64,000 bases of DNA, taken from the IMG/VR virus record IMGVR_UViG_3300021387_000118, positions 13,168 to 77,167 of that record; one strand, written 5' to 3'. Below, piece by piece: positions 13,096 to 64,000 of this stretch. The notes below the pieces were generated by a model. That model was given only the letters and a program-made list of their open reading frames with translations. It did not search any database and was not told the origin of the DNA. The position numbers and the translations under genes were made by a program. Numbering within the stretch: position 1 is the first letter of the stretch; each line of letters starts with the position of its first letter. Source of the stretch: a virus.

Positions 13096-13126
13096 TCATA
13101 TCACCTCCTAAATTATAGAGGCCATA

Positions 13127-13654: not shown

Positions 13655-13681
13655 AATTGTTTTCTCCTTTAATTCATTATT

Positions 13682-14257
13682 TTAATATTCGATAAATTCG
13701 GTTGCCGAAATACAGTCACTATAAATTTTCATTATGTCTCCAGTTTCGAAAAATCCATGAGCAGGACCAACTCCATCATCTTCCGCACTCATACACCACG
13801 GAGTTGGTATAGACCCTTTTTCCAGTTTCCATTTTTCAATATACATATTACGATCACCATTGGCACCACCTGGTGAATTATATATATTAAGCCATAAATT
13901 CGCTGCATTTGCATGAGAGGCATTCGCCTCAGTTACAGTAAATGTCTAATATAAATAATCAGCATGACCATCAGTAAAATAATTTGTTCCAATCATGTTG
14001 CTACCCAATCTAACACTGCCTCCGCCCCAATAAACGCCCATTCCCAGAGTGTCAGCAGTTTTCGCCGTATGAGAAACATCAACATTCCAGAACTATATAG
14101 TATATGTCTAATTTGCGACAAGGTTCTCAGATAAGTTTAACTGATATGCATTATAAGCAGCTGGGTTATATGTTTTCGGATCTATTAATAATAAGTTTTC
14201 ATTAACATTACTGCCACCAGCTATAATGTTTCCTGTTTTATAAAATCCAACGCTCAT
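13682..14257 (-). CDS. Hypothetical structural protein (three in-frame TAGs; invisible in the ORF track)
   Basis: RBS GGAGGGA before the ATG at 14257. The frame is continuous to TAA at 13682-13684. About 191 aa: MSVGFYKTGNIIAGGSNVNENLLLIDPK... Confidence 0.4.
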
Positions 14258-23585: not shown

Positions 23586-24155
23586 TTAGGTCAATAATTC
23601 TTCAATTTCAAAATTTGTTAACGCTCTATCATTGCGTAAATAATCTATGCTTAAATCTCTGTCTCCGATTAATGTAGTACCATCAATTTTTGGTTTATTA
23701 ATTAATTTCTCATAATCATTAGTATATTTATTAAGGTCAATCAATACTGTCCAGAGACTCTGTGTTTCATATTTATATTCAATAATTCCATCATTATTCC
23801 GAATCTCCATTTTATCACCGTGAAGACTCGCAATCCATTCTTCTTCAGTACCCTCATAATCTGTGTAGATAACTGCAATTTCATAAGCACTTAAACCGCG
23901 AAGAGTAGCGTTGGAAAGTTTACCAGTCATATCAATGACTTTTGATAAACTTCCCGACAACTTCCTCTTCTCAGGAGATATTGCTCCTGTTAAATTTTGC
24001 GGACTTGATAAAAGTCCAGATAGTGCTTGTAGTGGAGTTACCGTTGAGCCAGAAAGGTCAATTGTACCATTGGTAATTTGTCCTGTTAATGAAGATACTG
24101 GATGGAGGGTGCCAGTTAGTTGACCTAATCCAGAAAGAGTTCCGGTAAGTTCCAT
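23586..24155 (-). CDS. Tail-fiber-like protein with LSAYEIAV..GYEGTEEEWIASLHG motif
   Basis: RBS GGGAGGTG before the ATG at 24155. No in-frame TAG. TAA at 23586. N-terminal LTGTL-type repeats. Confidence 0.5.
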   Translation of the reverse strand: MELTGTLSGLGQLTGTLHPVSSLTGQITNGTIDLSGSTVTPLQALSGLLSSPQNLTGAISPEKRKLSGSLSKVIDMTGKLSNATLRGLSAYEIAVIYTDYEGTEEEWIASLHGDKMEIRNNDGIIEYKYETQSLWTVLIDLNKYTNDYEKLINKPKIDGTTLIGDRDLSIDYLRNDRALTNFEIEELLT

Positions 24156-24172: not shown

Positions 24173-24511
24173 TCACGAAACTTCTTCAGTTAGTTTTAGC
24201 TTACCGCTAATTATTGTGTCTACAATTTGATCTCCATAGGTTAATTGTATATCAAATACATATGTTTCTGGTTGAGCAAGATTTTTAGTATCTTCAGAAT
24301 CTACTCTAAGAATCATGGTATCAATTGGAATATTTTTCTCAATTAATATTTTTTTATCATTATAATCTTTTTTCAGAGCAAATCTAAGAGTATCGGTTTC
24401 TTCGGGAACATATTCATTTCCATCAGAATCTGTAATATTGATTTTTGTTATAAGAGTATCTGCACGGGTCATTAAAATCATATTTTTATCGGATCTAATT
24501 TTTACCGACAT
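24173..24511 (-). CDS. Hypothetical structural protein
   Basis: RBS GGAGGTGA before the ATG at 24511. TGA at 24173. 112 aa. Confidence 0.45.
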   Translation of the reverse strand: MSVKIRSDKNMILMTRADTLITKINITDSDGNEYVPEETDTLRFALKKDYNDKKILIEKNIPIDTMILRVDSEDTKNLAQPETYVFDIQLTYGDQIVDTIISGKLKLTEEVS

Positions 24512-24540
24512 ATAACTCACCTCCATTTAAGTTATTTTAT

Positions 24541-47475: not shown

Positions 47476-50400
47476 TCATGCTCTTTTGTTATATGCTCTT
47501 TTGAAATTCTATGTGTTATAATCAAATTGTTTTTGCATAAAGTTACGATCTTTTAATAAGCTGTTTGCTATAGCATCAATCTTATTCAACATGTCACCAT
47601 CTACATTACCATCAATTCTGATAAGAGATTCATAATAGTAGTTTCCACCACTATTTACACTGCTTACATTGCTAACATTTGGAACAGAAGTATTTGCTTT
47701 TGTCGGATCTATTTGACTCCATTTCCAAATATTATCAGATTGCAGTTTAGGAAGAACTTGCGAACCCTATGGTAACTGCCTCAAAATGGCCCCATTTCCG
47801 AGAATAATCTCGTCATTATGAGTCAGCGCAAGTTCATCTTCATTGATTCTCTTTGAGCCTTTACGATAAGATTTTAACTTTGACGCACTGGTAACTCCCA
47901 ATTTCTTCAAATGTTTCTTAAGCTCAGATAACACGGCATTGCTCTGTTGAGATGTCCATGTCTTATCTACATGAACACCAAGAGCATTGGCTAATTTAGT
48001 AGGAACACCTTTAGAAACAGATCTTCCAAAAGTAGATGCTATATAATCGCCAATTGCGCCACCGCCATTATTCTTACCTTTTGGTAACCCTTTAATAATA
48101 TCAACAACCCTATCTGAAGTATTTAATAACCAATTCGCATGTGAATCGATATACTACTAGGTCGCCGGATCTGATGATACTGTTCCTGTTGGAGTTGTAT
48201 TGGTAGTATTATTTATATCCGTATTGATTGATCCAATTCCCCCATCTGCGGCTCCAACAGTACTTCCAGCCTAAGATTGTGCCTTTGTTGCTTCAATCAT
48301 AGCGGCAGAATATTCTTTAGCTTTTTTAATGAGATAATCAAGTTTTTCGCCAGTTACAGTTGCAAATGTATCAATAGCAGTAGTATCAATGTTTTGAGCA
48401 ACAGCACTAGTGAATTTTTTCCAGTTATTAGTTGGAACAAGAGTTTCTTCATTGATCGCTCCAAAGAATGCATTTAAATTAGGATCTTTTAAGCAAGCGT
48501 CTGATGTTTCACTAACAACAGTTCCGGTAGCTTTAATCCTCTGGTCAACAGTGTCATATGCCTCTTGATAATGACCAACTAATTGATTCAACATCATTTG
48601 AACAATACGGTCTTGTTCATCCGTGTTTGCCGCAATATGACGGAGAGTCTGATCGAGTGTTTCTTGAATATCCTATGAAAGTTGATCATATCCTTGGTTA
48701 AGCATATCATAGCGATGGTTGTATCTGGTATCTTCTAATGACTCATCTGCATCAGATAATTGCTGTCTTAATCTTGCGGCCTCAGCTTGTGCTTGTTTAT
48801 TAGTGGAACCTTCCAAGGAATTTAATTGCGCAAGAACTTTATTACGTTCTCTATTTTGATTTGTCACTTGCTTCTGATAATCATAATATGATTTTTGTTG
48901 ACTTAAAGCCTCTTTTCTTAATTCTATATTTTTTTGAATAGCAGCATTTTCATTCTATATCTATACCTTGTACATTTCGATCAATGCGTTCTTGTCTTCC
49001 TTCAGGTCTACAGCCATGCTTTGGATTTGCTTTCTATATTCATCGACTTGTTTTTCGCCTTCTTCAACACTTATGTTGTGGTTTTCCATTTCTTCATTTA
49101 CTTTATCTATAGCCGATCTTAAATTACCCATTTCATTAATGGTTGTTTTATAGTGATTGCCCAATAATAATATATTTGCTAAACCTTTATTGGTAATGCC
49201 CCAACCTTCGCCATCATCATCAAAGAATTCTTCTTGACTAAATAAACCGCGAAGATGTTCGAAATCGGATCTAGTAGTCTCAAGTTTATCCTGAAGACTG
49301 TCAAACTCTTTCCAGCGGAGAGAGCGGATGGATTTCTTAAGATTCTCATTCTAAATCACCATTTGTCTGAGCGCGGCTTCATCAGCTTCAATAGCAGACT
49401 TCAATTGATCATACTGTTCAGAACCTTCTTCGTACCCCATTGTATCTAACAATCTCTTATTATAATCCAATCTTTGTTCTGTGTATATGATATTTGAATT
49501 ATTATTTTTGATCTGACTATTATAATCATTCTCAGTTATGTAAGAAGATGGATCATTAAGTAATGTACCTCTGGCTTCTTTAAGAGCAACCCTATCTTGA
49601 TACATTTGTGCTTCTGCTTTGATGCGGTTCATCATATAATCAATAGGCTTTAAGTTGAGATCATACATCGCTCTTGTTAAATCTCTTGCATTCTTTTCGG
49701 ACTGTTTTAATGCAGTTGCCATACCTTGATAAGCTGTTTGTGCCTTACGATATTCGTTACTATCTACACCGAAAATTCCGGCAGCATTTCGCATTTCATT
49801 AAGATATGCATTCATTTGTGCTCTATAAATTTCCTGCGATTTGCCCTCAAGAGCAATCTGGTTAGCATACTCCTGCATATTACCATAAGAATTATCTCTT
49901 AATCCTTTAGAAGCATTAAGATCAATAATGGCCTATGAGGTCTATGCAACGGCTTGAGCGTATTCGTTTAAGGATTCGTATTGCTCCGTGATGTTATCAA
50001 GTTTCATTTGCTGAAGTTCTTTTTGTTTTGCAATACACTCCTCGATAGCATCCTCACACTCCAAAATTTTTTCATACCACGTTTGATATTCATTAATATA
50101 CGCTGTTGCTCTGTTTTCTGTCTTACTAGAATCTTTTCCGCGTGATGTTTTCTTGGTTTTAAGATACTTAGAAAAGTCTTCTACTGTTAATCCGCCTTCT
50201 TTAATTAGTTTATTAAGACGTTTTGCTTCTTTAGATGTCACTAGTCCAGAAGATTTCGCTTTCTTAACAACCGTTTTTAAATGAGAGGTATATCCACCCT
50301 TCTTTGAAATGGCACTTTCATTGGTCTGTCTTAAACTGATATTGGTAGCCATTGCGTCATCTATATACTTATTCTTTGCAGCGTAACCAGTCTCGCCTTT

Positions 50401-53400
50401 ATATGATGACGGCGCATATCCTCCAGCTCCACCTATATTCTCTGCTCTGGATATTGCAAGTTCCATTGTTCGAGTCAATCTTTTGATGCGAACTTCAATC
50501 CAATCCATAAACGAAGATGCCCAGTTCTGGAATTTCTCAAGAGCAGTAGTAGTGTTCTCTGTTGCTTCGGTTTCTTTTTCTTTAGCATCTGTGTTAGCTT
50601 GTGTAGCTTTAGTGTTGGCTTTTTCAGATGACGATTTTGAAGTGGATGGACCATTATCATTAGAATGAATTGTCGGATTCTTAACATCTACTGAACCACC
50701 ATGTGCCGGACCTATAGGTCTTAAATCAGCCAACGAAACTCCAGATCCTTGAGCAAATGCTTTACCGTGACCTAAAGCTTTTCCATGTTCAATCAGATCA
50801 GTAGTTTGCATATGATTTAGAATTATATCTCCTTTTTTAAGAGCTTCTACATGCATACCACCTGGAATTAAGAACCATTTCCCATCTCTAATAATCGATT
50901 CGGTTCCTAATTCATTAACAAGTGCTTCTTCGTCTTGATCAAGTCCTACTTTACCATCAGCAAAAGCACCAGAAATAGGTCTAAGATTAATAGCATTATA
51001 AGCAGTTCCATCCGCATGAGCAGGAGAGATCATAGTACCAGTATATTTATGTGTTCCACCAGGTAAACCAAATACATTTGCGGCAACAGATATTGTAAAA
51101 GGTCTATTAAGCGCCGCATCAATACTACTACTAATCTATGATGTTTCGGCAGTAACCGGAATCTATGCAGTTCTAGAATTAATATCATGAACAGCAAAAC
51201 TAACGCTACTAATAGCCGGAGAAGTATTCGCATCAACTGTTATTTCTCCTTTTGTATCATTTGCTTTTGATTCAACATCCTCTATGGCTTGTTCTGCCTA
51301 CTCTGTATTGGCACCAACCTATACATCATTTTGCGTTAACGCAGTAATAGATTCCTGATCTAATTTTACAACTAAATCTGCACCTTTTGATACTTCGTCT
51401 AATACCCCTCTAAGAGTTTCAAGATCTTCTTCTCCAGTTATCTCTACCCCAATATCTTTTGTTTCATCTTGAGCCATTTCTTCAATTTGTTGTGGAGTAT
51501 ACCCTTGGCTTGATAATTCGTAAACAACATCAATAATCTGTTGTTTATGTTCTGTCTACTCTTGAATATCAGGATTAGCTTGCCTTAAATAATTCTGTTC
51601 TGCTCTTGTATCATCAATAGCATTACCAGTCTGAGTAGGAGCCTTTGGTCTTGTTGAGTACGATTGTTCTTCTTCCAAGCCAAACAATTCTTTTAAAGTG
51701 GTAACCAAAGCATTTCCAGCTTCTTGACCAAGACCAAGCTTTGCCAATAATGAATCAAGCGCTCCCTCAAGTGCTTCATCCTAAACCTTGCCATCACCAA
51801 ATATAATTTTATCAAAATCTTCTCCTGTATAGCCCTCTAAAGAACTCATAATAGAAGTCATTTCTTCGTCTAACCCATCAGCAGAAGTATATGCTTCTTT
51901 TAATTGAGCAACTATTCCATCATGAGTTTCATCACCATTTTCAGTAAGATTAGATATGTCAGCATTTTCTGCTATAACAGGAGTAATCTTGACTTCATTA
52001 TAATCTGGGAATGCTCGTTGCATTGCCTCTTCGTCAACTTCTTTTAAGTCTGGAGTTAATTTAATATGGGTTTCATCTGCAATCTATTGCACTCTGCGTT
52101 CAAATGTATCTTGATCAATTTCCCCACGATTAAACATGTTCTAAATTGATTTAAAATCAGCGATTCCATTCCTGAGTTCTTTTGCTGTTACCATTCCTTC
52201 TCTGGCAGCAACATCTTGCGTGTTTTCAACAAGTTTGCGCTGGCGAGTTTTAAGATCTGTTATCTAATTATTAAGATCCTAAAGCTCCTCGTCCGATGCT
52301 CCCTCTCTACGTGCCTTATTATATCTAAGTTGAGCATCAACAAGGTCTTCCATATTATCTTTAACTTTAAGTTCACCCTCCGCCTATGTATTAACAAGAT
52401 CGACATAAGCACCATAATCCTCGACCCTACCAAGAAGAATATCTAATAATTCCGTTGTAATACCAAGACTATGAGCTGCCTCATCCATGTCTGGCATAGC
52501 AAGAGTATATCCATCATCTGTTTTTGACCCAAAACCTTTATCGACAGCATCTTTTATAAAATTACTTAATCCAGTAGCATCTTCAGTGAAATATCTTTTA
52601 ATCTTTTCAATATTTCTATCATATGCAGCAACAGTATCAGATCCATATTCATCAATCATTGCCGTAAATGCTCTAAACTCATCAGTTCCGGTTAGTCCTT
52701 TGGAGTAAGCATCTTGCATATCTTTTAATGCGCTTTGTATTGTATTATATCTATCACCACCATTTGCAGTAGACTCAGCATTTTGCCATTGCGCAAAATC
52801 TGTGAATTGTTGCTTCTATTGATCGTACAAAGCTTGAAGCATAGATAATTCACGTTCAGCTGCGCTAATACGCTATTCAGCCGCTGCAACTGCCTTTTGC
52901 GCAGTTTCCGTTTCAGCATCACCGTACATTTCAATAATGTTTTTCTGTTCTTCAATCGTATCTTTTAACGTACTTACTTGCAGTTCATATTCTGCATCGA
53001 CTAAAGTTTCTGCTGCATCCGCATTCATTTTCATGCCATCAGCACTCTAATAGAAAATACTACTGACATCATATCCAACAAGATCACTAAATTGTCTCTA
53101 TAACTCATTCATAGTATCAATAGTTAATCCTGTTTCTGAGTTCATTTCGCTAAAAGCAGAAGAGAGAACCGATACTAGTTCTGAAGCATTAGTAGATACA
53201 AGAGATGTCATAGTCTCATACCAACCAATTTGACTTTGTTGCATAGCAGAGATAGAAGCATCTACATCATCAATCTGAGATTGATACTCACGCCATGTAG
53301 ATCCGCCACGCTGAACACCCCTTTGAAGATTTTCAAGTTCTTTTCTCTATTGTTTAAGATTATCAATTTGCTCATTACCATTACTAATCAAAGATTTGTA

Positions 53401-56400
53401 AAGAGATTCACTTGTCTTTTGATGTTTGACATCAGCAGAATTAAGTAAATCTTCAGTTTGAGAAGCTTTTGTTTGAAGATCAGTATATTCGTTTTGAAGG
53501 TCAGTAAGAGGTAATTCTTTTAATGTCTTGCTATATTCATAATACTTAGATGTTAAGGAGTCCAATGCTGTTTCTGCCTAAATATACTATTCATTACGTT
53601 CTTGCCAAATAGTATTAATGTTACCATTTTTATCAAACATTTCAGTATCATCAAGCAGATCCTTTGCGGCATCTCGTACAATTTTGGCTTGCTCTAATAT
53701 GCCATCATTACCCTCATATGGAGCCATTACACCCTCAATATAATCTTTCGTAACCTTTCTACCAAGATTTTCTAATTGTGAATAATCACTTTCAAGAGCT
53801 TCAGCCTACGACTGAAGTTTAGCTAATTCAGCAGAAGCCTATTGATATGGTAATTCTTCTTGCTCTTTTCTCATATTAAATCTTTGTGTAAGATTACTCC
53901 ACCAATCAGACTTATTGCTCTATCTATTACTCCTAGCATTCTATGCACGTTCAGAATTCTCTCCATATACAGCGGAATATATTGTTTCCTATGCTCCATA
54001 TATTGCATCAAGGACGTTATTTCCAATAATCTGTTTGCTAAGATTATCTATATTCTTTTTATAGTCAGAATCTGACATCCCTTGTCCTTTTGTCGCATTA
54101 AATTCCTACTCATTCTAAAGCTCTGTTAATGCATCTTTATATTTTTGAATAGCGTTAGCAGCTTGTTCTCCAGGAAGTTCAAATAATGATCTAGCAAAAT
54201 CAGACTATGTATCACGAGCGCTGATTAAAGAATCTACAAGTGAATCAATGGCATCTTTTTCCTGATAATATGCATCACTGCCATAAGCAATGGAGCCGTC
54301 ATTCATAGCTTCTTGTAATTTAACTCTTCTCCTTGCGATCTATTCTTCAATGTTTTCTATGTTTTCTTCGTTTAATCCCATTAAGTTCATATAACCACTA
54401 GCGGTCGGCTCTCTTTTTTCAAAATCAGCCTAAGCTTTTTCAAATGAACGAGATATTTCTGTGCCAGTACGTTCTAGCTCTCTAAATGGAAGTTCACTTA
54501 TTGCGTTTTTATATTCATATATTTTCTGCGTTAAATTATCAATAGCATCGGCATTACTATCATAATTGTTTTGCATTTCTTGCCATTCGCTATTATTACG
54601 TGCATATTCATCGAATGATGATTTTGCTTGCTCGAAAGACTCAAATTGATGACTTGCCATATATTCGCGCCTAAATTGATCCTGTTGTGCCAAAATTTCA
54701 TCTTGTTGATTAGCAAGATTAGACTTCTCAGCCCTAGCTGCATCAATTGCGCCCTAATATATTTCTTTTGTAATATCTCCACCCATAGTTTCTCTGTTGG
54801 AAATTTCTTTCTCGGCTTGTGCTGTCGCTCTGGCAAGTTCTGTGCCAATATTTTGAAGATTGGTTAATGGAAGTTCATTGATTGCTTTACCCCAATTACG
54901 GATTTTCTCTATAATAGAATCTAAAGACCCTTGGTTAGTGTCAAGATCTGCCATAAACTGTTGCCATTCCGTATTCTGCGCAAGTATTGAATCCTTTTGT
55001 TCTTCCCAAGCGGCATCTGCTTGTTCTTTCGACTCAAATTGATGACTCGCCATAAACTCTTTTCTTTGCATCTCTTCAAACTATGTGGCTTCATCAAGAA
55101 TTTCTTGTCTTGTTCTTTCAAGATTTTCTTTTTCGGCAGAAGCAGAATCAATAGCTTGTTGATACAATGACTATGTAGGAACATTGCCAATGTTCTCAAC
55201 ATTTTGAATTTGTCGTTCCGCATCAGCTGTCGCTCTGGCAAGTTCCGTACCAAAGCTTTCAAGTTCAACACGAGGTTGTTTTAATATAGCTAAATTATTT
55301 TTCTGTTTATTAGTTTTTTCGCCAAATATTAATCCGGTTAATTCCTTTACTCTGTTTTGCAATATGGTATTCTTAGGACTCTTAGCGAGTTTTTCTTCTG
55401 CTGCTTTTAGCTATCCTTCGTATGCTTTAATTAAACCATCACTTATTGCGTTGTCAGCTTCGTAATCCTCAATTGTCATTGCATTACCGAGAACATCATC
55501 TAATCCTTGCTTTTGAGAATTGAGATTTCTATCGGCAGTAAGAGAGTCAATTGTTTTCTGTAAGTTTTCTGTTTCAACTTCAAGATCCCATACAAGTTTA
55601 TAATCTCCGTATTTTTCGATCAATGTATCAACGTCACCAGAGAATTGATCTTGTAATGCAAGAACTATATTCCAATTAAGATCTTCACCGTATTTTTCTT
55701 TCAAAGCGCTTAGTTTATTGTTAAACTATTCGTACTGTGCAATCCTTTCTTCATTATCATAAGCTGGCGCAGTAATAAATGATTCCCTAACCTATTTTAA
55801 TGCCTCTTGTTCAGAGACATTAACTTTTCTATAACTAGCAGTAAAATTAGCAAGATAGGTATCAAGCTACTTAATTCCTTCATCAGAGAAATCAGTCCAT
55901 CCAGATTTAAACTAATCTATCCAATTGCTAAGTTCCTTTGTACCGAATTTTGAAATACCTTCCTCTGAAAAATCAGTCATGTCTGGAAACTCTTCTTGTA
56001 AATCGCGCATTTGCTCCGCTGTAAGAGATCCTTCTGTGCGAAGTGTTTCAAGCGCCCCCGTCAACGAGGAGAGTCTCTTCTCATATCCTTCTGTAGCAGA
56101 TTGATAGCTCTCGTCTGAGAAAATAGAAGAGAGGGTGCCATCTTTTTCGATTTCTGGTACTTTATCCTAATATTCTTTTATCCAATCGAGAAGATCATAA
56201 AATCCTCCGCCAAGTTTAAAATCAAAACTGCCATTATCTATTGCCTCAATTATGCTACCTTTTTGCCCTTGGGTTAATTTTGACAACATACGTTTATCTA
56301 TACGGCCTTCATCTCCACCAAGTGCTTCGTATATTTGATCGTTCACATTTTGATATGAAGCAAAATAATTACCATTCTCATCGACAAATTCATATTTTAA

Positions 56401-58040
56401 TGCAACCTTAAAAGTATGCTATAATTCTTCGTCTCCAGGGAATAATTTTTCTAAAATGTCATCTAATTGATTTGTCATTTCCGCATCTGTTAAATCAGAA
56501 GAGTCAAATGTAAATAAACTTTCAATTTGTTTAGTAACTTCTTCTTTATCTTGTTTTGTTTTGGCTCTATCAAATGCATTAGATAAACTATACATCAATT
56601 TATTTTTAATATAATCATCAAAGTTTTCGAAAATATCTTGCTCTTCAAATGCGGCATATGCCTTACTCAAATCAATACCAGACACAGCAGATGCTATGCC
56701 ATTTTGTATTGTCTCAGAGAATTCTTTATAGGTTGCTGTGGTTGTAAATTTTGACATAAGAGATGGTTTTAAGGATTCCCAATTATCTTTAATTTGTCTC
56801 TCAGAGATATTTATATTGTCTTCTGCAATTTTTGCCTCATCATAAGAAGAATCTCCAGAAAGACCAAGTAACTTGTTCGCTTCTTCAATAGCATCTTCTA
56901 ACTAATCAGTATCTGCATTAAAGAAATATGTGACTGTTGGAGCAGTAATATTACCTTCTGCATCCATTATATTCCCACCGGTAATCCATTGATCAGTTAA
57001 ATTGATTCCATTTTTACCAAATCCTTGCTCAAACGCTTCAGATACTTTTCCACCATAATCCATGCTTTGGTCAATAACTACCTTATAACCATCTTCGGTT
57101 TTTTCTATGAAAGATTCAATTCCATTTTTTGTCGCATCAATATTTGATTTAGTAGCTTTTACCATTGATTCATTTTCAGATATTGTGCGTAATTCTTTAT
57201 CATTCTATGCAAGAACACCATTCAACTAATCTTCGAATTTGTCTCCGATTTCTTTGTTCGCCAGATCTCTCTGTACAGCAAGCAAATCCTGTAGTGACTG
57301 AGTTGCTTTATCAGCATCTGTGCCAAGATTTACATATGCATTTCCTTGAGCATCTGTACCAGCCCTCAACGATGGGTACAAATCAACCAATTGCCTATTT
57401 ACATCTAAAAATTCATTATACTCATCAGTTGACAAAGATGCATTTTCGTATCCTTTACCCTCTTTATATGTTACACCAGACCTTAATTCATTATAACGCT
57501 TTCCTAAATCTGTTGTAGATGTTTCTCTTTCTTTATAATTTTTATTAACATCTTCAATTTGCTATTGAGCTTTTTTACCTTTTGCTATTAAATTATCTTG
57601 CTTTTTAATAACATCATTATATATCCACTCAATTCCTTTTCCGATTACTGTAATAATAGCTGTTACAGCAATTGTTGTTAATGCGGTTGATATTAAAGAT
57701 TTCAATGCCCCACCGAACTTAGCAAGCGATGAAACAATATTTGGCATTGCTTCTGGAACCATCCGTACAGTTGTCTACATTTTTCGCATTGCATCTCCCA
57801 TTGATAATGCCTATAATTCTGTATCGGACATACTGTCTTTTAATCTAGCAAAAGCATCGCTACTAACAACGATATTTTTAGCCCATTCATTAGTATTTAA
57901 TTGTTCCATAAAATTGCCATCAATTTTGAAATCTTTTAACGCTGTTTGTAATGAAGCACTAAGCGGTTTAAATACTTCTTCTTCAACAAGTTTTTTGTCA
58001 GGATCTCCAGAAAAGAAATTTTTTATAGCATAACCCCACA
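47476..58040 (-). CDS. Giant (~3520 aa) coiled-coil tail protein (tape-measure-like; TM helix, ~100-aa tandem repeats, putative peptidase region)
   Basis: All 18 track fragments from 57811-58074 down to 48271-48597 have end mod 3 = 0, and each begins at a CTA (TAG). The sampled gap 51034-51360 translates without TAA/TGA. Likely start is the internal ATG about 58040 (RBS GGTGA; MWGYAIKNFF...). Tandem repeats MASHQFES..GTELARATA at 54430-55362. TM segment LISTALTTIAVTAIITVIG. TGA at 47476. Confidence 0.5.
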
Positions 58041-58144
58041 TGTTTTCACCTTTAGAAGTCGTAGATAAAATCATTACATATAATAGTAAAATACATATGG
58101 TAAAATATAAATGCTAAAGATAATGTTTTTGTAGTTGAACAACA

Positions 58145-58175
58145 AAAAAGAGCGGCAAATCACCGCTCCATATAC
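58145..58175 (-). terminator. Rho-independent terminator of the DUF262 gene
   Basis: On the minus strand, GAGCGG-tgatttg-CCGCTC is followed by TTTTTTGTT, 8 nt after the TGA stop. Confidence 0.55.
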
Positions 58176-58182
58176 GACCAAC

Positions 58183-59169
58183 TCAGCAGATGAATCTGTT
58201 AAACTCATTATTCAATATCTCAATCCTTTTAGCAACATTAACTGCGTGTCCTGCGCCCTGAGAAGATGCTAAATTATATTCTTCACTAATGCTGCTTCCT
58301 TTTTCACCACCAAAGAAGTACTGAAGGAATGGGATTATTTTCTCATCATCTCCATGCTTTTCAATAAATGGTGTGAGAGTAGGTATGTTACCACGAGACA
58401 TTAATTTTCTCATAACAAACCTATTCTCTTTTTTATTTTCAGCAAGTGCATCATAAATGGTTAAGAATTTATCATATATACCAGAAAGTCTCTCAACATC
58501 TTGTGGCTCAATTTCAGTAGTACGCATAAATGGACCAATCTCTTTAGAGTCGAGACAAGGCTTATCATTAAACAACATAATCAGGCTTTGAATAACGATT
58601 GTCCTCTGCGCAAGTTTCGCCCTAGCGTTATTCGTTAACGCAACAAGGAATATTTTATGATCGCACAACTGGGAGATTTCATTTTTCGAAATAGCCTTCG
58701 CATAGTTACGATCATTAGCTTTGAGAGTAGTACCATTATTCAGTCTATAGAAGATATCTTCAATTTCTTCCTGAGTAATATCATCAAAAATAATAAGGTT
58801 CAAATTGTATTCATCAATTTTATCTCTAATTTCTTCCGGTAAATCAGAATATCTCATACCATTAATATCAGTTTCAAAATCATCCTCAATTATAGATGGA
58901 ACATCTTTAAGAGCGTATTTACCGTCCATAAAATCTATTATAGCAAAACATCTCTGTTTCCCGTCTATAAAATCGAAAGATGCTCGTCCGGCTTTAACAA
59001 CATAAAACGGTGGAACAGCATAGTCCATAATTAAACTATGAATTAGTAAAGATTTCTGCTGTACGTTCCAAACAATTCCACGTTGAACCTCATTATCAAA
59101 TGTTGCTTTGTTCGCTGTATATTGTCCATATAGTTTCTTTGCCGTCCAATTTGTTTGTGTTCGTATCAT
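58183..59169 (-). CDS. DUF262 (ParB/Srx-like nuclease-NTPase, GmrSD/SspE N-terminal type) protein; standard-code moron
   Basis: RBS GAAAGGAGTCAACT before the ATG at 59169. 328 aa with no in-frame TAG, unlike all its neighbours. DUF262 hallmarks EVQRGIVWNVQQKSLLIHSL and FIDGKQRCFAII (DGQQR motif). Own promoter upstream and terminator downstream. TGA stop. Confidence 0.75.
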   Translation of the reverse strand: MIRTQTNWTAKKLYGQYTANKATFDNEVQRGIVWNVQQKSLLIHSLIMDYAVPPFYVVKAGRASFDFIDGKQRCFAIIDFMDGKYALKDVPSIIEDDFETDINGMRYSDLPEEIRDKIDEYNLNLIIFDDITQEEIEDIFYRLNNGTTLKANDRNYAKAISKNEISQLCDHKIFLVALTNNARAKLAQRTIVIQSLIMLFNDKPCLDSKEIGPFMRTTEIEPQDVERLSGIYDKFLTIYDALAENKKENRFVMRKLMSRGNIPTLTPFIEKHGDDEKIIPFLQYFFGGEKGSSISEEYNLASSQGAGHAVNVAKRIEILNNEFNRFIC

Positions 59170-59195
59170 AGTTGACTCCTTTCGTTTTTTATTTA

Positions 59196-59223
59196 ACTCT
59201 AGCAGAGTACAACAATAGAGTCA
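59196..59223 (-). promoter_or_regulatory. Sigma70-like promoter for the DUF262 gene
   Basis: On the minus strand, TTGACT-17 nt-TAGAGT lies about 25 nt upstream of the RBS, in a 275-bp gap after the tape-measure stop. Confidence 0.35.
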
Positions 59224-59445
59224 AGATTTTTTAATATCCACTTTTATTATCAGTATTGCAAGCACGATAATGGGAGAGTGGTACCCATATATAGGATTTC
59301 GACTGTATATTACGATAAAAACAATTACGCCTGTTCTTACCACATCTTGTCAGTCTGTCGCTCGGATCTTCGATAGAAGAGTGCCGAGTCGGGATCGTTA
59401 TCATATTGATAGTTTTCCCCGATATTCGATATATTTTTATGGCTG

Positions 59446-62400
59446 TCATCTGACCTGTATTAGCAACATAATGGCATTGTTATTATGTTCTATACAGAGG
59501 GCATTTCTCCTACGACTTTTACCCTTGCCATTAATTTGTAGGAATATTCCTGCCGCTGCGCCCATTAATGTATTAAGATGACCAAACGCACCACCAAGAT
59601 CATTAAGTAAATTTAATAATTGAGTTCCAAGATCAATAAATCCCTTAATCCAGGATGAATCAATTGCTGATGCCGTTAATTCTTGAAGCGCATTTTGAAA
59701 TTGTGCAGCTTTACCTTGAATAGAATCAAGATATTTGTCTAATTCTTGTTGTGCTGAACCTTCTGAATTTAATGATGCTTCATATACCTCTTGTAATGTT
59801 TCAAAGTTGTCAAGAATCGAACTTGCCGCTGCAGCCCTTGTCTTACCAGCTATCGTTTCAAGCAAGAAAGACTATCTATTAGTTCCCATCTTTTTGTCTT
59901 CTTCGCCAATCTCTTTCCAAACTGATGCAATTCCTTTTAACATTTCATATGTTGTTTTATAGTTTCCGTTTTCATCAAGAATATCAAATCCCTGATAATT
60001 ATTGGCACTAACTTTAGTTGCATCCATGATTGTCGATCTTAATTTTGATTGTGTTGTTATAAGACCATCGATTTCTTCTCCGGCTTCTTGCATGTCTTCT
60101 ATGGAAGTTCCTGTTAATCTTAAGGCAATAGTACGAAGCGATTGACCAACCATTTGCGGGTTCTGAAGAACCTGATTTCCGGCTACTGTCAATGCGATGC
60201 TTTCGTCTATTGAATTTCCCGCAACCTTAAGTGTTCCGGCTGATCTTTGTAACGATTCTGCTAATTCGCTAGTTGAAATGCTAAAGTTATTACCTATGTT
60301 GTTCAGTTTATCAATGATATCAATTTTATCTAATTCCTGATAAGCTTGACTCATTGCCACCAGTGATTCTGTTGCAGTATTAATATCTTGAAACTCTGAT
60401 ACGTTGAGCAGAACAGTAGAGTATTCTGCACTTTTGCTTGCTTCTTTTAAATCCTCACCTAAGCGCATCCAATCGGCAGTACTAGCTGAAATCTATGCCG
60501 CAGTTGTTCCAACTCTATCTGCTATATCAAACGTTTCAAATTGATATTCTTGTAATGTTTGTAAACTTTCATCTGATACTTTTCTCATCTCTGTAAGTTG
60601 CGTATCAAGTTCTGTTACTGTTTGAATTGCTTCACGTCCATAACGAATAAAATCCTGGAAACTGAGATAATACGTCGCAAGACTAGTCATTGTGTTTTTG
60701 AATTGATCTTTGAAACGGTCACCGAGAGATTTGCCGAGAAGACCACGTTTTGCAGCATCTTCTTGTATTTTCTAAAATCTCGCAGTCCAATCTTGTGCAG
60801 CCCCCTTACTGCCAACCTATGATATGTCATCTTTTAATTGTTCAAGAGCTTCACTAAATTCTTTCGCGGCAATTTTATTCTGATTCATCCATTTCGCCAG
60901 ATCTGCGCCAGCCTTGGCCTACCAATCTCTTCCTACATCCTAAAAATCGATACTTTTGCTTACATCTTGATATGTTTTTCTTATTTCAAGTATCTATTGT
61001 TTAAAATCCTCTAATCCTTTCTCATCTATTATATCTGATGGATTTAAAGCCGTAAGCGAATCTTCTATTTTTTTTACTCTATCATCCCATCCATCCGCTC
61101 GCCATTCCGACTAACCTTTCATTTTATCTACACGATTAGCCATATCATTATACAATTTAGTGGCTTCGGCATTAATCGCGTTTTGTTTTAACATCTCTTC
61201 AGTATTCGTAGTAGATGCATTTTTTAATTCTTCTCTTGCTTGTACTTGTTTCTTTGACAAATTAAGACCTTCTGCTAAATCATCGTTCCAGCTCTATTCA
61301 ATACTTCTAATCTCTGTCATTAGAGATGCCATTTTTTGGAACTACTCATTTGTTAACGCAGTATTGCCAACTATATCTCCATTATCGTTTCGTTTCCATT
61401 CGCCACTTAATGCCTATTGATAAATTTTCTAATATTCGGCCCTGTCATTAGCATATTGATTTAATGTCTATCTTGTATTTTGTGCCTACATTTTCTTAAA
61501 TACAGACTTATATTTTGCTGATTGCGTCGGATCATTAAAAGAATCTTCGGCGCGAGTCCAACGATTCTACATTTGATTCGAAATATTACCATTAAATTTA
61601 TCAGTAACTTTATCGAGTGCTTCGCCAGCAGAAATAGCTGCTTCTTTTGCATCATTTAAATCTTGAACAAGCTTTGAATCTCCCTTTCCCCCAGACGCAT
61701 CCAATTTTGCTTGCAATTCAGCTACTTTGTCTGTAGCGTTTTCAAATGCAATAATAGCACTTTCTACTTCTTTAACAGATTTTTGATTAAAATTGTATTC
61801 ATCCTATGTATTTTTTAAATTCTGTTTTATAGTACGTAATTCATTCTAAAATCCAGTCATTGTATTTGAAGTAGCTTTGTCCTTAGATTTATTAAACCTA
61901 TCAATTAAATCGTTCAATTCCTTTTCAAGCTATTCTGTATCAGCATTTGATTCTTTCATGTCACGCAACGTTGATTGAAGATCGGTATTTAGTTTTGCCT
62001 TTGCTGCTTCTAAATTATCGGGACGAAGATTAGACGCTACTTTTTGATTTTTTTCAGCCTACTGAGCTGACAATCTATATTGCTTCAATAGATTATCTAA
62101 TTCTTGTCGCTCTACTTTATTTGTAGAACCCTTTGTACGTAATTCGCCAATTTTCTTCGTGACTGCATTATAAGCATCTTCAACCTTTTTCTTGTCTTCG
62201 CCTGAAAAATCATATGCACTACCATCAACATACTATTGCTTATATCTATTAAGTGTTGCTTCCTAACGACTTAATAACGCTTCTGTTTCTTCTATTGCCT
62301 TTTGCTTCAATTTTTCTCCGCTTGCAAAATCTTTTGCATCTTTTATGTCATTCTTTGCCTGATGCTTTTTCGTTTCGGCAGTAACTCTTTCATTAAATAA

Positions 62401-64000
62401 ATCAATTGAATAATTCCTATGTTCGTCAGCATAAGTTTTAGCCTATTCATTAATTGATCTTTGTTCTTCTTCAAGTAAATCAATATATTCTTTTATACTA
62501 CCAATTAACTTCTAATCTGGCGTGGAAGCTCTCTATGCTTCGTCAAGTGCCAACATCGCATCAGATAATTCGTTTGTAACACGAATAGCGTCACGTTCAA
62601 AAGAGAGGTAGTTAGTTGTTTCTGCACTAAATGGTTCCCAAGTTTTTTCTTTACGATTCCATTTTACACCTTCTTCATAAGTTCTACCACGTTCATCCTA
62701 ATATGTTTTAGATCGTTTACTTGGAGTTCTTTGCTCTTTGATGATTTTACCTTCTTTAGGAGACTAATCTGCATCACCAACCAAATTATCTTGCGCCTGT
62801 TTTTTTGCCGAATCACCTTCCTGTTTAATTCCCTCCGCAGCTTGTTTTGTTGCATCCGCTGTTTCTTTGGCAGAAGAGGCGACTTCATTATTTGCTCTTG
62901 TAAAATCAATTTTTGCGACAGCGGCAGTTTTCGCAGAATCTCCCTCGGTTTTAACACCTTCAGCAGCTTGTTTTGTTGCATCCGCTGTTTCTTTGGCAGC
63001 CTCGACAGTCTTTTCTTCTTGGTTAGTATCCTATCTATCACCTGTCTTTGATGCTTCTTCCTTCTTCTACTTTAATTCTTCTTCTGCCTTAGCAGCATCT
63101 TCCGCAGCTTGTTTTTCTTCTTTGTGCTGCTCAACCATAGGAGAGGAGGGCGGCTGCTGAACCCCAGATGCATCTGCGACTTTCTTTTCTGCTTCTGCAT
63201 GTTCTTCAGCGGCTTTAGCAGCTTGATGATGAGCATCAGCAGTCTCAGCGGCGGCATCTTTTTCAGCCTGTTTCCGCTTCTCTATTTCCGCTAATAAATC
63301 AACACCATATTTTTTGGCCTCATTTATGTAACTTTCTTGATCGGTTTCTATTATACGGCGATCTTCACTATCTGAAACACCAGGTCTTTTGGGAGGGTTC
63401 GATTTTTTCTCTTCAAGTCGTTGATACGCCTGTATTAAGCCCTCAACGATTTCCTACTCAGTCTTACCGGATTCAATTATCTATTTGCGACGCACAGCAT
63501 TTCTATCTGTATCCGCTCTCCATGGATCTCCATTTGCAATTGCAGCATCTTCAATCGCTTGAAACATTTCTTTTATTGCGTCCTCTGCCGACATCGAATC
63601 ATATTTAATTGCCTCAATCATCTCGTGATATTTAGCTTCTGTATCATCAAACGTCTTTGCAGAAACACCGTCCTCGAAATCTGGCATCGCTTTGTTAAAT
63701 GCATCAAGATTTGCTTGAATTTCAGGAGAAAACTAGATTTTTTGCCATTTCTAAGACGTTTCGTCAAACGCTACATCAAGGCGTTTCGCAACTTCCTCCA
63801 TACCTTTCATAGCATCTTCTGCACTAATCGCGCCAGAATTAATATCTTGGATATATTGCATATAAGCACGAGAGAGTGCCTCTGGTGGTTCTGTAGATTT
63901 TAATACGGATTTTGTCCAGGTGTTTTTAAAGTCATCAACGGTTGATGAAACTGGAGTTTCATCGGATAATTTACTTCTATATGATTCAATGCTTTCCTTA
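59446..64000 (-). CDS. Tail tape measure protein, TP901-family core region (partial; continues past the 3' window edge)
   Basis: Fragments 63481-63687, 60493-60690, 59872-60468 and 59446-59865 share one frame joined by TAGs. A continuous hand translation from about 62900 to 59446 has many TAGs and no TAA/TGA. The region DRFKDQFKNTMTSLATYY...LKVAGNSIDESIALTVAGNQVLQNPQMVGQSLRTIALRLTGT matches the TP901 tape-measure core. TGA at 59446. Confidence 0.65.

What the first reader, a model, noticed from the sequence alone, without database searches (positions are those of the whole stretch)
58140..59450. Standard-code DUF262 (GmrSD/SspE-type ParB-like nuclease-NTPase) moron with its own promoter and terminator inside the recoded tail module
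The only TAG-free gene in 56 kb of recoded late genes. It carries the DUF262 motifs (QRG.VW..QQ..LI.S; FIDGKQR) and is flanked by a TTGACT-17-TAGAGT promoter and a GAGCGG..CCGCTC-T6 terminator. It sits between the tape-measure core gene and the downstream giant gene. Autonomous expression in standard code fits a lysogenic-conversion defence gene (superinfection exclusion, modification-dependent restriction) or an anti-defence factor. A 328-aa DUF262 without the usual DUF1524/HNH partner is an unusual architecture.
Basis: partly seen in the sequence, partly recalled or inferred. Interest (0 to 1): 0.8.

Follow-up and report, generated by a model that had tools for sequence, protein, structure and literature searches.

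The report
DUF262 gene inside tape-measure intron
The standard-code DUF262 gene is real, but it lies inside a self-splicing group I intron that splits one giant recoded tail tape-measure gene, so the intron lets an independently expressed accessory gene sit inside an essential late gene.

Summary
The 328-aa ORF (58183..59169, minus strand) is real, TAG-free and DUF262-positive (Pfam GmrSD_N 5.8e-16). Its promoter-like site, Shine-Dalgarno and terminator are conserved in relatives. The two "genes" around it are two exons of one TAG-recoded tape-measure gene of at least 5,000 aa.

The gene sits in a 1,449-nt group I intron (59520..58072).
- The ~300 nt upstream are conserved as RNA across reading frames and fold into P1-P9.1 with the P3/P7 pseudoknot. 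90.9% of cells pair versus 33-44% in slid controls, and 35 of 67 pairs show double changes.
- One guide sequence pairs with the exon 1 end (U·G) and the exon 2 start, with compensatory changes.
- One relative has ACG instead of ATG at the junction, and exon 2 has no Shine-Dalgarno.
- An intron-less homologue reads straight across the junction.
- Rfam's group I model does not detect the RNA.

The protein resembles Menshen NsnA: a ParB-DUF262 NTPase plus a helical DNA-binding domain, with no nuclease domain. That architecture is known, not unusual. Its role is inferred only (competition or exclusion factor, or homing-type protein). A phage with ~55% identical exons carries a 93-99% identical cassette. 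A related phage appears to hold a 7.8-kb, many-gene intron at the same site.

The parts
59521..64000 (-). Tape-measure gene, exon 1. It is TAG-recoded, runs off the window end, and ends ...FLQINGKG with the codon GGT at 59523..59521.
   Evidence: There is a long ORF only if TAG is read as sense. Homologues carry Pfam PhageMin_Tail. Protein conservation in five relatives stops at G-x-G(K), after which the conserved DNA is read in different frames.
58072..59520 (-). Group I intron, 1,449 nt. It begins AAAAGUCGUAG... and ends ...UAAUG. The last G (58072) is the proposed omega-G; it is also the G of the apparent ATG at 58074..58072.
   Evidence: Boundaries come from P1/P10 pairing and comparison of five copies. 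The length is a multiple of 3, and both exons are in the same frame.
59238..59525 (-). Ribozyme core. P1 pairs exon AGGGU (59525..59521) with the guide GCCCU (59502..59498). The P10 part of the guide, GAAAU, lies at 59507..59503. The remaining helices are P2, P2.1, P3, P4, P5, P6, P7, P8 and P9.1.
   Evidence: 90.9% of cells pair versus 33-44% when partners are slid. 35 of 67 pairs change on both sides. 0 of 500 shuffles reach the observed values. The P/Q/R/S-like elements resemble the T4 td intron. The region is more conserved (69-81% nt) than the flanking coding DNA.
59196..59224 (-). Sigma-70-like promoter TTGACT-17-TAGAGT (TG-extended), lying inside the intron just after P9.1.
   Evidence: Consensus scan. 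The same layout, TTGAC(A/T)-17/18-TAnnnT, occurs in L004, L129 and L130.
59176..59182 (-). Shine-Dalgarno AAAGGAG of the DUF262 gene.
58183..59169 (-). DUF262 gene, 328 aa, no TAG codon. It has a ParB-DUF262 NTPase domain (about residues 1-150) and an all-helical ParBDB-like domain (about residues 150-328).
58140..58169 (-). Intrinsic terminator GGAGCGGUGAUUUGCCGCUC followed by a U tract.
   Evidence: It is the only terminator-like site in 57800..59800. A terminator hairpin follows the ORF in L001, L004, L129, L130 and L171.
58072..58139 (-). AT-rich 3' tail of the intron up to omega-G. It lacks the 9-12-bp pairing with the P9.1 loop that is seen in three relatives.
   Evidence: Duplex energies are -15.0 kcal/mol in L001 and L130 (0 of 300 shuffles as low), -6.1 in L004 and -4.5 (no better than shuffles) in the window.
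47476..58071 (-). Tape-measure gene, exon 2. It begins ATT TTA TCT... (ILSTTSKGE...), runs 3,531 codons with 55 TAG, and stops at TGA 47476..47478.
   Evidence: No Shine-Dalgarno precedes 58074, while most genes here have AGGAGG-type sites. The intron-less homologue P0061 aligns across the junction without a gap.

Best explanation
Structure (shown by sequence comparison):
- The DUF262 ORF is the resident gene of a 1,449-nt group I intron (59520..58072, minus strand).
- The intron interrupts one giant TAG-recoded tape-measure gene. Exon 1 ends ...NGKG at 59521 and exon 2 starts ILSTT... at 58071.
- The ribozyme core (P1-P9.1) occupies the first ~285 nt. The ORF cassette (promoter, Shine-Dalgarno, ORF, terminator) lies downstream of P9.1.
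- One internal guide sequence, 5'-GAAAU-GCCCU-3', pairs with the exon 2 start (P10) and the exon 1 end (P1, with U·G at the splice site).

How it works (inferred):
- Late in infection the tape-measure pre-mRNA is read through the cassette's terminator.
- The intron excises itself by the usual guanosine-initiated two-step reaction and joins GGU|AUU in frame.
- The ligated mRNA, with at least 87 TAG codons, is translated once TAG is read as glutamine.
- Separately, host RNA polymerase can start at the intron-internal sigma-70-like promoter and stop at the terminator.
- Because the ORF has no TAG, ordinary host ribosomes can translate it early in infection or in the lysogen.

Protein (fold shown, role inferred):
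- It is an NsnA-like ParB-DUF262 NTPase fused to a helical DNA-binding domain, with an intact QRxxxW / DGxQR / FxxxN pocket and no nuclease domain.
- My best guess is that it is an NTP-dependent DNA-binding or DNA-sensing factor that acts on other incoming or co-infecting phage DNA (exclusion or competition). This would favour the phage and the spread of its own cassette.
- The intron gives the cassette a harmless site in an essential gene, and its conserved core serves as homology for cassette exchange between phages.
For: RNA evidence:
- About 300 nt after the apparent end of the upstream ORF are conserved at nucleotide level in five diverged phages while falling in different reading frames.
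- Identity of this RNA is 69-81% nt. The flanking exons are only 22-72% identical at protein level.
- The structure test on alignment A3 gave 90.9% paired cells versus 33-44% in slid controls. 35 of 67 pairs changed on both sides versus 1-10. 0 of 500 shuffles matched. The structure includes the P3/P7 pseudoknot.
- P1 has U·G in 5 of 5 copies. P10 is 93% paired, with AAAAU/AUUUU switching to AAGAU/AUCUU and AGGAU/AUCUU.
- All five copies end in G. L130 has ACG, not ATG, so exon 2 there has no start codon.
- No Shine-Dalgarno precedes 58074, whereas most genes have one.
- The P4, P7 and J8/7 elements and the ends (TTGGGT|... ...TAATG|) resemble the T4 td intron.
- The same P4...R signature recurs in 32 metagenomic or genomic sequences, 22 of them with the matching S element.

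Gene continuity:
- P0061 (679 aa) is a single ORF that aligns to the spliced junction over 98% of a 600-aa query without a gap at the junction.
- In L171, a related phage in standard code, exon 1 ends GUCGGU and pairs with GCCGAC. The adjacent UUUGAAUAU is the exact complement of AUAUUCAAA.
- That 9-mer occurs once in 23 kb, directly after a G and in frame, at the start of an ORF homologous to window exon 2 (tblastn 1e-26).

Cassette:
- The promoter, Shine-Dalgarno and terminator are conserved.
- The ORF has no TAG codon.
- The protein is under purifying selection: 53-74% identity, above the neighbouring exons.
- The L151 cassette is 93-99% identical to the window over about 1 kb, while its exon 1 is only 51-63% identical. 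The breakpoint lies inside the ribozyme core.

Protein:
-.
- The NsnA architecture is described in PMC12065111.
Against: - Rfam RF00028 (Intron_gpI) gives no hit, even at E <= 10 on the 326-nt core alone. It does find T4 td and nrdB at 40 and 36 bits, both below its own 50-bit cut-off.
- RF00028 also misses the related metagenomic RNAs, although it finds other introns in the same loci. This limits the weight of the miss.
- Splicing has not been observed.
- The window copy lacks the 9-12-bp pairing between the P9.1 loop and the 3' tail seen in L001, L130 and L004. Its splicing efficiency is therefore uncertain.
- P1 is short: 4-5 bp, and 3 bp in L129 and L151.
- P1/P10 statistics on five AT-rich sequences are weak on their own (49 of 500 shuffles reach the observed pairing).
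- A sense-strand intrinsic terminator inside the intron would have to be read through.
- Four of five copies keep an in-frame ATG exactly at the 3' splice site, which would also allow separate translation of exon 2.
- Shorter tape-measure homologues (such as the 745-aa P0075) have ORFs that end about 11 residues past this position, followed by a structured RNA with its own candidate P1.
- Nothing tested bears directly on the protein's function. It has no nuclease domain, and 80 IMG/VR family members are not associated with introns or tape-measure genes.
Confidence: 0.72

Rival explanations
1. The DUF262 protein is the intron's own mobility protein. It would be a new kind of homing endonuclease or homing-initiating factor built on the ParB/Srx fold. 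It would cut or mark cassette-less or intron-less tape-measure alleles so that repair copies the cassette in.
For: - It is the only ORF common to all copies at this site: the window, L001, L004, L129, L130, L151 and L164. A 27%-identical DUF262 gene also lies in the 7.8-kb element of L171.
- The cassette is nearly identical (93-99%) between phages whose exons are only 51-63% identical, which shows recent horizontal spread.
- All ORFs are intact.
- Group I intron ORFs are normally homing endonucleases (established knowledge).
- Some ParB/Srx-fold proteins are named as nucleases by their depositors, such as the pNOB8 ParB-N domain and PadC ('ParB-like nuclease domain protein').
Against: - No recognised nuclease domain or homing-endonuclease family is detected.
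- In GmrSD, BrxU and SspE the DUF262 domain is described as the NTPase or sensor, and cutting is attributed to the DUF1524/HNH-type domain, which is absent here (PMC12065111, PMC4619093).
- Most family members are free-standing and not next to introns.
- The L151 pattern can also arise from ordinary recombination at the conserved ribozyme core.
- No paper in the searchable library links DUF262 or ParB-like proteins with group I introns.
Confidence: 0.22
2. The DUF262 gene is a free-standing moron between two separate genes: a tape-measure core gene ending at the TGA at 59446 and a giant gene starting at the ATG at 58074. The conserved upstream RNA would be only a leader or regulatory element of the moron.
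For: - An in-frame TGA lies at 59446..59448, and an ATG at 58074 opens the downstream ORF.
- A sense-strand terminator separates the two ORFs.
- Shorter tape-measure homologues, such as the 745-aa P0075, have ORFs that end near this position.
- Rfam finds no intron.
Against: - L130 has no start codon at the equivalent position.
- No Shine-Dalgarno precedes 58074.
- The 25 codons after GGT are not conserved as protein. They are conserved as RNA across reading frames.
- The guide sequence covaries with the first bases of the downstream ORF, and does so across 7.8 kb in L171.
- The fold has group I topology with strong covariation.
- The homologue P0061 is one continuous ORF.
Confidence: 0.07
3. 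The intron is real, but the protein is an anti-defence decoy. As a phage copy of the sensor subunit of host DUF262-based systems (Menshen NsnA, GmrSD/BrxU, SspE, DndB-type), it would bind the same DNA feature or the partner subunits and so block host immunity early in infection.
For: - The best defence-library match is NsnA (1.1e-28), and there is no NsnB or NsnC partner nearby.
- Expression would be early and independent of recoding.
- The family is widespread in large phages.
- BrxU-type DUF262 proteins act as dimers (from memory of the BrxU structure paper, not checked here), which would allow poisoning by a truncated homologue.
Against: - No experimental precedent was found in the searches.
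- The NTP-binding motifs are fully conserved, which a passive decoy would not need.
- The position next to the integrase in relatives fits expression in the lysogen better than an early lytic function.
Confidence: 0.12
4. The window copy is a decayed intron that no longer splices, or splices poorly. The phage would then make a truncated tape-measure protein plus a separate 3,532-aa protein started at the ATG at 58074. The ribozyme sequence would persist only because the cassette arrived recently.
For: - The window lacks the pairing between the P9.1 loop and the 3' tail seen in L001, L130 and L004.
- An ATG is present at the junction.
- A terminator lies inside the intron.
- The 3' two-thirds of the element looks recently acquired, being 93-99% identical to L151.
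Against: - Every core helix, U·G, omega-G, P1 and P10 is intact in the window copy.
- L129 also lacks the loop-tail pairing yet keeps an 8-bp P10.
- There is no ribosome-binding site for exon 2.
- A tape-measure protein split at this point would have to work as two chains, although the fused homologue P0061 exists.
Confidence: 0.1

Closest known systems
T4 td, nrdB and nrdD (sunY) group IA introns with I-TevI/II/III ORFs
   Same: - These are self-splicing group I introns in an essential phage gene.
- Each carries an ORF that is looped out of the ribozyme and, from memory of the T4 literature, transcribed from its own promoter.
- The P4, P7 and J8/7 sequences and both intron ends are similar to ours: td reads CTTGGGT|TAATT... 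...ACATAATG|, and ours reads GCAAGGGT|AAAAG... ...ATGTAATG|.
- As I recall for nrdD (not checked here), the ORF lies 3' of the catalytic core and the 3' splice site is remote.
   Different: - The ORF here is a ParB-DUF262/ParBDB protein, not a GIY-YIG or HNH endonuclease.
- The host gene is a TAG-recoded tape-measure gene, while the ORF is in standard code.
- The ORF ends with its own intrinsic terminator.
- RF00028 scores T4 td and nrdB at 40 and 36 bits but does not detect this RNA at all.
Menshen NsnA, the sensor subunit of the NsnABC anti-phage system (PMC12065111)
   Same: - Same two-domain architecture: ParB-DUF262 with QRxxxW, DGxQR and FxxxN motifs, followed by a helical DNA-binding ParBDB domain.
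- It is the best PADLOC match (1.1e-28, residues 5-255).
   Different: - No NsnB ABC ATPase and no NsnC effector lies next to it or among the window ORFs scanned.
- It is encoded by a phage, inside an intron.
GmrSD / BrxU / SspE modification-dependent enzymes
   Same: [quoted passage not shown] BrxU 7P9K is the best solved-structure match by sequence, and BrxU and SspE are among the top fold matches.
   Different: The DUF1524/HNH-type nuclease half is absent, so it cannot work as a single-chain restriction enzyme.
PhiPA3 gp210, an intron-encoded endonuclease used in phage-phage competition (PMC11620839, abstract seen)
   Same: It is a group I intron ORF in a phage whose product acts on a co-infecting rival rather than being merely selfish. 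It is a model for how an intron ORF can benefit its phage.
   Different: That protein is described as a homing endonuclease. Here there is no nuclease domain and no experiment.
Phage morons (lambda and HK97-type: promoter, gene, terminator inserted between late genes)
   Same: - It is an autonomous transcription unit in the late region.
- It could plausibly be expressed from the prophage.
- Relatives hold the same gene beside the integrase.
   Different: It is not intergenic. It is tolerated inside a coding sequence only because the surrounding RNA splices out.
Clostridioides difficile IStrons and the fungal mitochondrial rps3 intron (from memory, not checked here)
   Same: These are group I introns whose internal genes are not classical homing endonucleases.
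   Different: The cargo differs (a transposase or a ribosomal protein), and neither case involves a phage or recoding.

Membership tests
Group I intron | P1 helix in which the last exon base is U, paired with G of an internal guide sequence | tested here: met
   U·G is present in 5 of 5 copies, followed by 2-4 G-C pairs. L171 and L134 have independent 6-bp P1 helices, GUCGGU/GCCGAC and GUAGGU/GCCUAC.
Group I intron | The intron ends in G (omega-G), and the start of exon 2 pairs with the 5' part of the same guide sequence (P10) | tested here: met
   G ends 5 of 5 copies. P10 is 93% paired, with compensatory A-U to G-C changes. L171 has a unique 9-bp P10 located 7.8 kb downstream.
Group I intron | Conserved core: the P4-P6 domain and the P3-P8 domain with the P3/P7 pseudoknot | tested here: met
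   Thirteen helices were tested: 90.9% of cells pair, 35 of 67 pairs change on both sides, 0 of 500 shuffles reach this, and slid controls give 33-44%. The small P9 hairpin is not supported (44% paired).
Group I intron | Conserved core sequence elements (P, Q, R, S) | tested here: met
   Compared directly with T4 td (td / ours): ACGGGGAAC / UCGGGGAAA; AAUCCCGU / GAUCCCGA; ACGACUAUC / CAGACUGAC; GAUAUAGUCUG / AAUAUACAGUCGA. The general consensus is from memory.
Group I intron | Match to the curated covariance model Rfam RF00028 | tested here: not met
   No hit at E <= 10. As a control, T4 td and nrdB score 40 and 36 bits, below the 50-bit cut-off. Related metagenomic RNAs are missed as well.
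Group I intron | Self-splicing with guanosine; ligated exons found in RNA | not testable with these tools
   No RNA data or experiments are available.
GmrSD / SspE / BrxU type IV restriction enzymes | N-terminal DUF262 (ParB-like NTPase) domain | tested here: met
   Pfam GmrSD_N 5.8e-16. BrxU is the best solved-structure match by sequence and a top fold match.
GmrSD / SspE / BrxU type IV restriction enzymes | C-terminal DUF1524 / HNH-type nuclease domain, fused or as an adjacent gene | tested here: not met
   Pfam finds no such domain. The C-terminal half is all-helical with no nuclease fold match. The neighbours are the tape-measure exons.
Menshen (NsnABC) | NsnA: ParB-DUF262 plus ParBDB domains | tested here: met
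   PADLOC NsnA 1.1e-28 over residues 5-255. The architecture is as described in PMC12065111.
Menshen (NsnABC) | NsnB ABC ATPase and NsnC effector genes immediately downstream | tested here: not met
   Downstream lie a terminator and exon 2. The standard-code ORFs scanned with Pfam are a ribonucleotide reductase, an SPFH protein, a dUTPase and an integrase; three further small ORFs had no Pfam match.
Known homing endonuclease families (LAGLIDADG, GIY-YIG, HNH, His-Cys box, PD-(D/E)xK, EDxHD) | Presence of one of these catalytic domains | tested here: not met
   The only significant Pfam hit is GmrSD_N, and the fold searches return only ParB/Srx-type proteins. One distant family member, P0054, has an added HNH domain.
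Moron | Own promoter and terminator flanking a gene not needed for lytic growth, inserted between late genes | tested here: inconclusive
   Promoter-like and terminator-like sites are present and conserved. The site is inside a gene, within an intron, not between genes. Expression and dispensability were not tested.

The most novel reading that the evidence does not exclude
Group I introns at this tape-measure site act as cargo bays. Their self-splicing core lets phages keep independently transcribed, standard-code accessory genes inside an essential recoded late gene. The cargo ranges from one gene here to about a dozen in a 7.8-kb relative. The conserved ribozyme sequence serves as the homology through which the cargo is swapped between distantly related phages. 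The one constant passenger, a ParB-DUF262/ParBDB NTPase, would be a new class of intron-associated mobility or competition protein that lacks any known homing-endonuclease domain.
Probability: 0.35. Interest if true: 0.85.

Novelty: new variant of a known kind. Interest (0 to 1): 0.7.

Why it matters
1. Annotation. What looks like three genes is one interrupted tape-measure gene of at least 5,000 codons. Many 'short' tape-measure proteins in databases may be first exons. Rfam's group I model misses this intron class, so such interruptions go unseen.

2. Biology of recoding. The cassette is a standard-code gene with host-type expression signals. It is nested in a TAG-recoded late gene and removed from the late mRNA by RNA catalysis. 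This is a tidy way of running two expression programmes from one stretch of DNA.

3. Mobile elements. If the ParB-DUF262 protein drives or rides cassette spread, it is a new kind of intron passenger. The 7.8-kb relative would be an unusually large gene-carrying group I intron.

4. Defence research. A phage-borne orphan NsnA-like sensor is a candidate superinfection-exclusion, competition or anti-Menshen factor that can be tested directly.

Tried and rejected
- Rfam at gathering and E-value thresholds found no group I hit on the window, on the 326-nt core, on L004/L129/L130, on L134 or on L171. The T4 control shows the model is weak for phage introns.
- blastn of the region and of the ribozyme against GenBank phages found nothing relevant.
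- An IMG/VR scan with the conserved 15-mer AATGCCATTATGTTG returned only chance hits.
- An IMG/VR scan with the single protein found no relatives. A scan with the family alignment gave 80 loci. None had a homologue of our tape-measure gene or integrase, or the ribozyme signature, within 6 kb.
- A search for intron-less alleles with the ligated-junction pattern GGTATTTTWWMYTACGAC gave 26 chance hits with no tape-measure homology.
- No tRNA or suppressor tRNA was found in the window.
- A separate DUF1524/HNH partner was looked for in the intron and among the standard-code ORFs. None was found.
- The pairing between the P9.1 loop and the 3' tail was considered as a general feature. It holds for L001, L130 and L004 but not for the window or L129.
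- The proposed small P9 hairpin is not supported by covariation.
- A group II intron, an intein and translational bypassing were considered and dropped. There is no reverse transcriptase, there are in-frame stops, and the insert is 1.4 kb of structured RNA plus an ORF.
- Literature searches linking DUF262 or ParB-like proteins with group I introns or homing found nothing.

Full report
**1. What is at the coordinates**

The minus strand carries an ORF at 58183..59169: 328 aa, ATG start, TGA stop. It matches Pfam GmrSD_N (DUF262) at E = 5.8e-16. It has the three DUF262 motifs QRGIVW, DGKQR and FYRLNNG, which are invariant or at least 90% conserved in a 46-sequence family alignment.

An AAAGGAG Shine-Dalgarno precedes the ATG.

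The promoter match alone is not above chance in this AT-rich DNA: 12 sites against 9.2 +/- 2.5 in shuffles. The same arrangement of promoter-like site, Shine-Dalgarno and terminator is kept in relatives.

The surrounding minus-strand genes make long ORFs only when TAG is read as sense. The neighbours have 55 TAG in 3,532 codons and 32 in 1,471. The DUF262 ORF has none.

Three small late-strand ORFs (117-189 aa) also lack TAG, so 'the only TAG-free gene' is an overstatement.

TAG aligns with Gln in relatives.

**2. The flanks are not two genes**

The three ORFs are in one frame.

In four further phages the DUF262 homologue (53-74% identical) sits at the same place, after a PhageMin_Tail gene and before a giant gene. 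These are L001/L002/L003, L004, L129 and L130/L131.

Protein similarity of the upstream ORFs stops at ...G-x-G(K). The next ~300 nt are strongly conserved as DNA but fall in different reading frames in different phages. That is the signature of a functional RNA, not of a protein tail.

This RNA is 69-81% identical between the phages. The adjoining exons are only 22-72% identical at protein level.

**3. The RNA is a group I intron**

Reading the alignment gave the helices P1, P2, P2.1, P3-P8 and P9.1, with the P3/P7 pseudoknot. The pair count on the MAFFT alignment gives:

| Measure | Proposed structure | Controls |
|---|---|---|
| Cells forming standard pairs | 90.9% | 33-44% when partners are slid |
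| Pairs changed on both sides | 35 of 67 | 1-10 in slid versions |
| Shuffles reaching the observed values | 0 of 500 | n/a |

(All.)

Exon 1 ends in U, paired with G of the guide GCCC(U), in all five copies. The bases just 5' of that guide pair with the first bases of the downstream ORF: AAAAU/AUUUU in three copies, UUUAAGAU/AUCUUAAA in L129, and AGGAU/AUCUU in L130. This P10 helix is 93% paired with compensatory changes.

Every copy has G immediately before exon 2. In L130 the triplet there is ACG rather than ATG, so exon 2 has no start codon.

In the window no Shine-Dalgarno precedes 58074, although most genes have AGGAGG-like sites.

The core sequences and both intron ends resemble the T4 td intron read from GenBank.

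The resulting intron is 59520..58072, 1,449 nt. It joins ...INGKG to ILSTTSK... in frame.

**4. Independent support**

P0061, a 679-aa ORF from another phage, aligns with the spliced junction sequence over 98% of a 600-aa query with no gap at the junction.

L171 is a standard-code relative whose tape-measure ORF is 1,027 aa. Its exon 1 ends GUCGGU and pairs with GCCGAC. The adjoining UUUGAAUAU is the exact complement of AUAUUCAAA.

That 9-mer occurs once in 23 kb. It lies 7,766 nt downstream, directly after a G and in frame, at the start of an ORF homologous to window exon 2 (tblastn 1e-26).

A pattern made from P4 and R (GAATATCGG...CGASAGRCYGACAA) finds 32 metagenomic and genomic sequences. 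Of these, 22 have the matching S element downstream. Two are new copies of this tape-measure intron, L151 and L164.

**5. The main counter-evidence**

- Rfam RF00028 never hits this RNA. The control shows the model is weak here. T4 td and nrdB reach only 40 and 36 bits against a 50-bit cut-off. The model also misses the related metagenomic RNAs while finding other introns in the same loci.
- The window copy lacks a 9-12-bp pairing between the P9.1 loop and the 3' tail that L001, L130 and L004 have.
- P1 is short.
- A sense-strand terminator lies inside the intron.
- Four of five copies keep an ATG at the splice site.

Splicing itself is therefore inferred, not shown.

**6. The protein**

AlphaFold2 gives a confident model (mean pLDDT 91.9). 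It has an N-terminal ParB/Srx-type domain and an all-helical C-terminal half.

The best structural matches are BrxU, ParB CTPases, PadC, SspE, KorB and a DndBCDE-DndI DUF262 protein. No nuclease fold is found.

The best defence-library match is Menshen NsnA (1.1e-28). Its published architecture, ParB-DUF262 plus ParBDB and proposed as a DNA sensor, fits (PMC12065111).

There is no NsnB, NsnC, DUF1524 or HNH partner. The protein belongs to a recurrent phage family, PHROG 2598, with 129 relatives in IMG/VR. So the architecture is known and not rare. It is neither a GmrSD/SspE enzyme nor a complete Menshen system.

**7. What the context says about function**

The phage is temperate. Ribonucleotide reductase, dUTPase and a tyrosine integrase are encoded in standard code at 5..7023.

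In L005, L132 and L133 the 44-47% identical homologue lies just after the integrase, without the RNA. More distant homologues are free-standing in large phages. This fits an accessory gene expressed from the prophage or early in infection.

Other observations point to cassette mobility:
- The gene is the one constant passenger of the tape-measure intron.
- It is better conserved than the exons.
- L151 carries a cassette 93-99% identical to the window over about 1 kb, although its exon 1 is only 51-63% identical and the first 200 nt of its intron 67%. The exchange point therefore lies inside the ribozyme core. The cassette has moved recently between distant phages.
- Other copies hold extra, unrelated genes on the opposite strand: a lipoprotein in L129 and a zinc-ribbon protein in L130, with an equivalent ~600-nt insert in L001. 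L171 holds about a dozen ORFs.

**8. Mechanism proposed**

- Shown by sequence comparison: intron anatomy, splice-site pairings, cassette signals and protein fold.
- Inferred: late read-through and self-splicing restore the tape-measure mRNA. Host RNA polymerase and ordinary ribosomes express the TAG-free ORF independently.
- Inferred with low confidence: the protein is an NTP-dependent DNA-binding or DNA-sensing factor acting on rival or incoming phage DNA. A homing-type role (about 0.2) and an anti-defence decoy role (about 0.1) are alternatives.

**9. Verdict**

The real feature is an intron-nested gene cassette in a recoded tape-measure gene. It is a new variant of a known kind, with a plausible and testable more novel reading, namely introns as cargo bays with a new intron passenger family. 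No paper in the searchable library links DUF262 or ParB-like proteins to group I introns.

Noticed in passing
window 47476..58071 plus 59521..64000 (minus strand): Once spliced, the tape-measure gene is at least 5,023 codons (3,531 plus at least 1,492, running off the window) with at least 87 TAG codons. That is far larger than usual tape-measure proteins. The domain content of exon 2 was not examined.
   Followed up: partly
L171 13055..20820 (same contig as L136; ENA ERZ15610569 NODE_347): This appears to be a 7,766-nt group I-type intron at the same tape-measure site in a standard-code phage. It has a 6-bp P1 and a unique 9-bp P10, and it holds about a dozen ORFs on both strands, including a 332-aa DUF262 gene (27% identical to ours) and a 298-aa membrane protein. 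Its ribozyme core was not worked out, and Rfam finds nothing.
   Followed up: partly
L129 5291..5761 (minus); L130 6053..6565 (minus); L001 about 7050..7650: Extra genes lie on the opposite strand inside the intron, downstream of the DUF262 gene. L129 has a 156-aa protein with a lipoprotein-type signal (MNRMFFIILVCLLLTSC...). L130 has a 170-aa multi-zinc-ribbon protein, and L001 has an equivalent ~600-nt insert. The window copy has none of these.
   Followed up: partly
L151 (Ga0326511_10002780), about 12899..14115: The intron is chimeric. Exon 1 is 51-63% and intron nt 1-200 are 67% identical to the window, but from about nt 200 onward (P7-P9.1, promoter, DUF262 ORF) identity is 93-99%. This indicates recent cassette exchange, with the breakpoint inside the ribozyme core.
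   Followed up: yes
loci L139-L170 (metagenome and genome scans): A widespread set of RNAs shares GAATATCGG...CGAGAGACTGACAAGG...(G/A)ATACAGTCC; 22 of 32 pattern hits also have the S element. They look like a group I subclass that RF00028 does not detect, although it finds other introns in the same loci (L150, L160). Several interrupt what look like phage protein genes.
   Followed up: partly
L134/L135 7238..about 7700 (NCBI GCA_014848825.1, tape-measure protein annotated as from Clostridium sp.): The 745-aa tape-measure ORF ends 11 residues after the equivalent site. It is followed by a structured RNA with its own P1 (GUAGGU/GCCUAC) and GACUG/CAGUC elements. After that come more than 5 kb of small genes, including DUF2513 and PemK-like genes, with no exon 2 within reach. 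Many database tape-measure proteins of this type may be first exons.
   Followed up: partly
protein P0062 (80% identical to window exon 1): This ORF departs from the homologous sequence at ...LLETVAG|LKKPVKYGNIFLSTHLNALII, about 120 residues upstream of our insertion site. It may mark a second intron site in a close relative.
   Followed up: no
window 5..7023 (plus strand): This is a standard-code block with ribonucleotide reductase, an SPFH protein, a dUTPase and a tyrosine integrase (5767..7023), so the phage is temperate. In relatives L005, L132 and L133 the DUF262 homologue lies directly after the integrase rather than in the tape-measure gene.
   Followed up: partly
window 13127..13654, 23586..24155, 24173..24526 (minus strand): Three small late-strand ORFs (175, 189 and 117 aa) have no TAG codon and no Pfam match. 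They may lack TAG by chance given their size, or they may be further standard-code inserts.
   Followed up: partly
window, whole: No tRNA gene, and so no TAG suppressor tRNA, lies in these 64 kb. The means of TAG decoding must be encoded elsewhere on the roughly 142-kb contig.
   Followed up: no
window 59270..59581 (plus strand) and 59231..59449 (minus strand): ORFs of 103 and 72 aa overlap the ribozyme core. They are almost certainly spurious, since the region is conserved as RNA across reading frames.
   Followed up: yes
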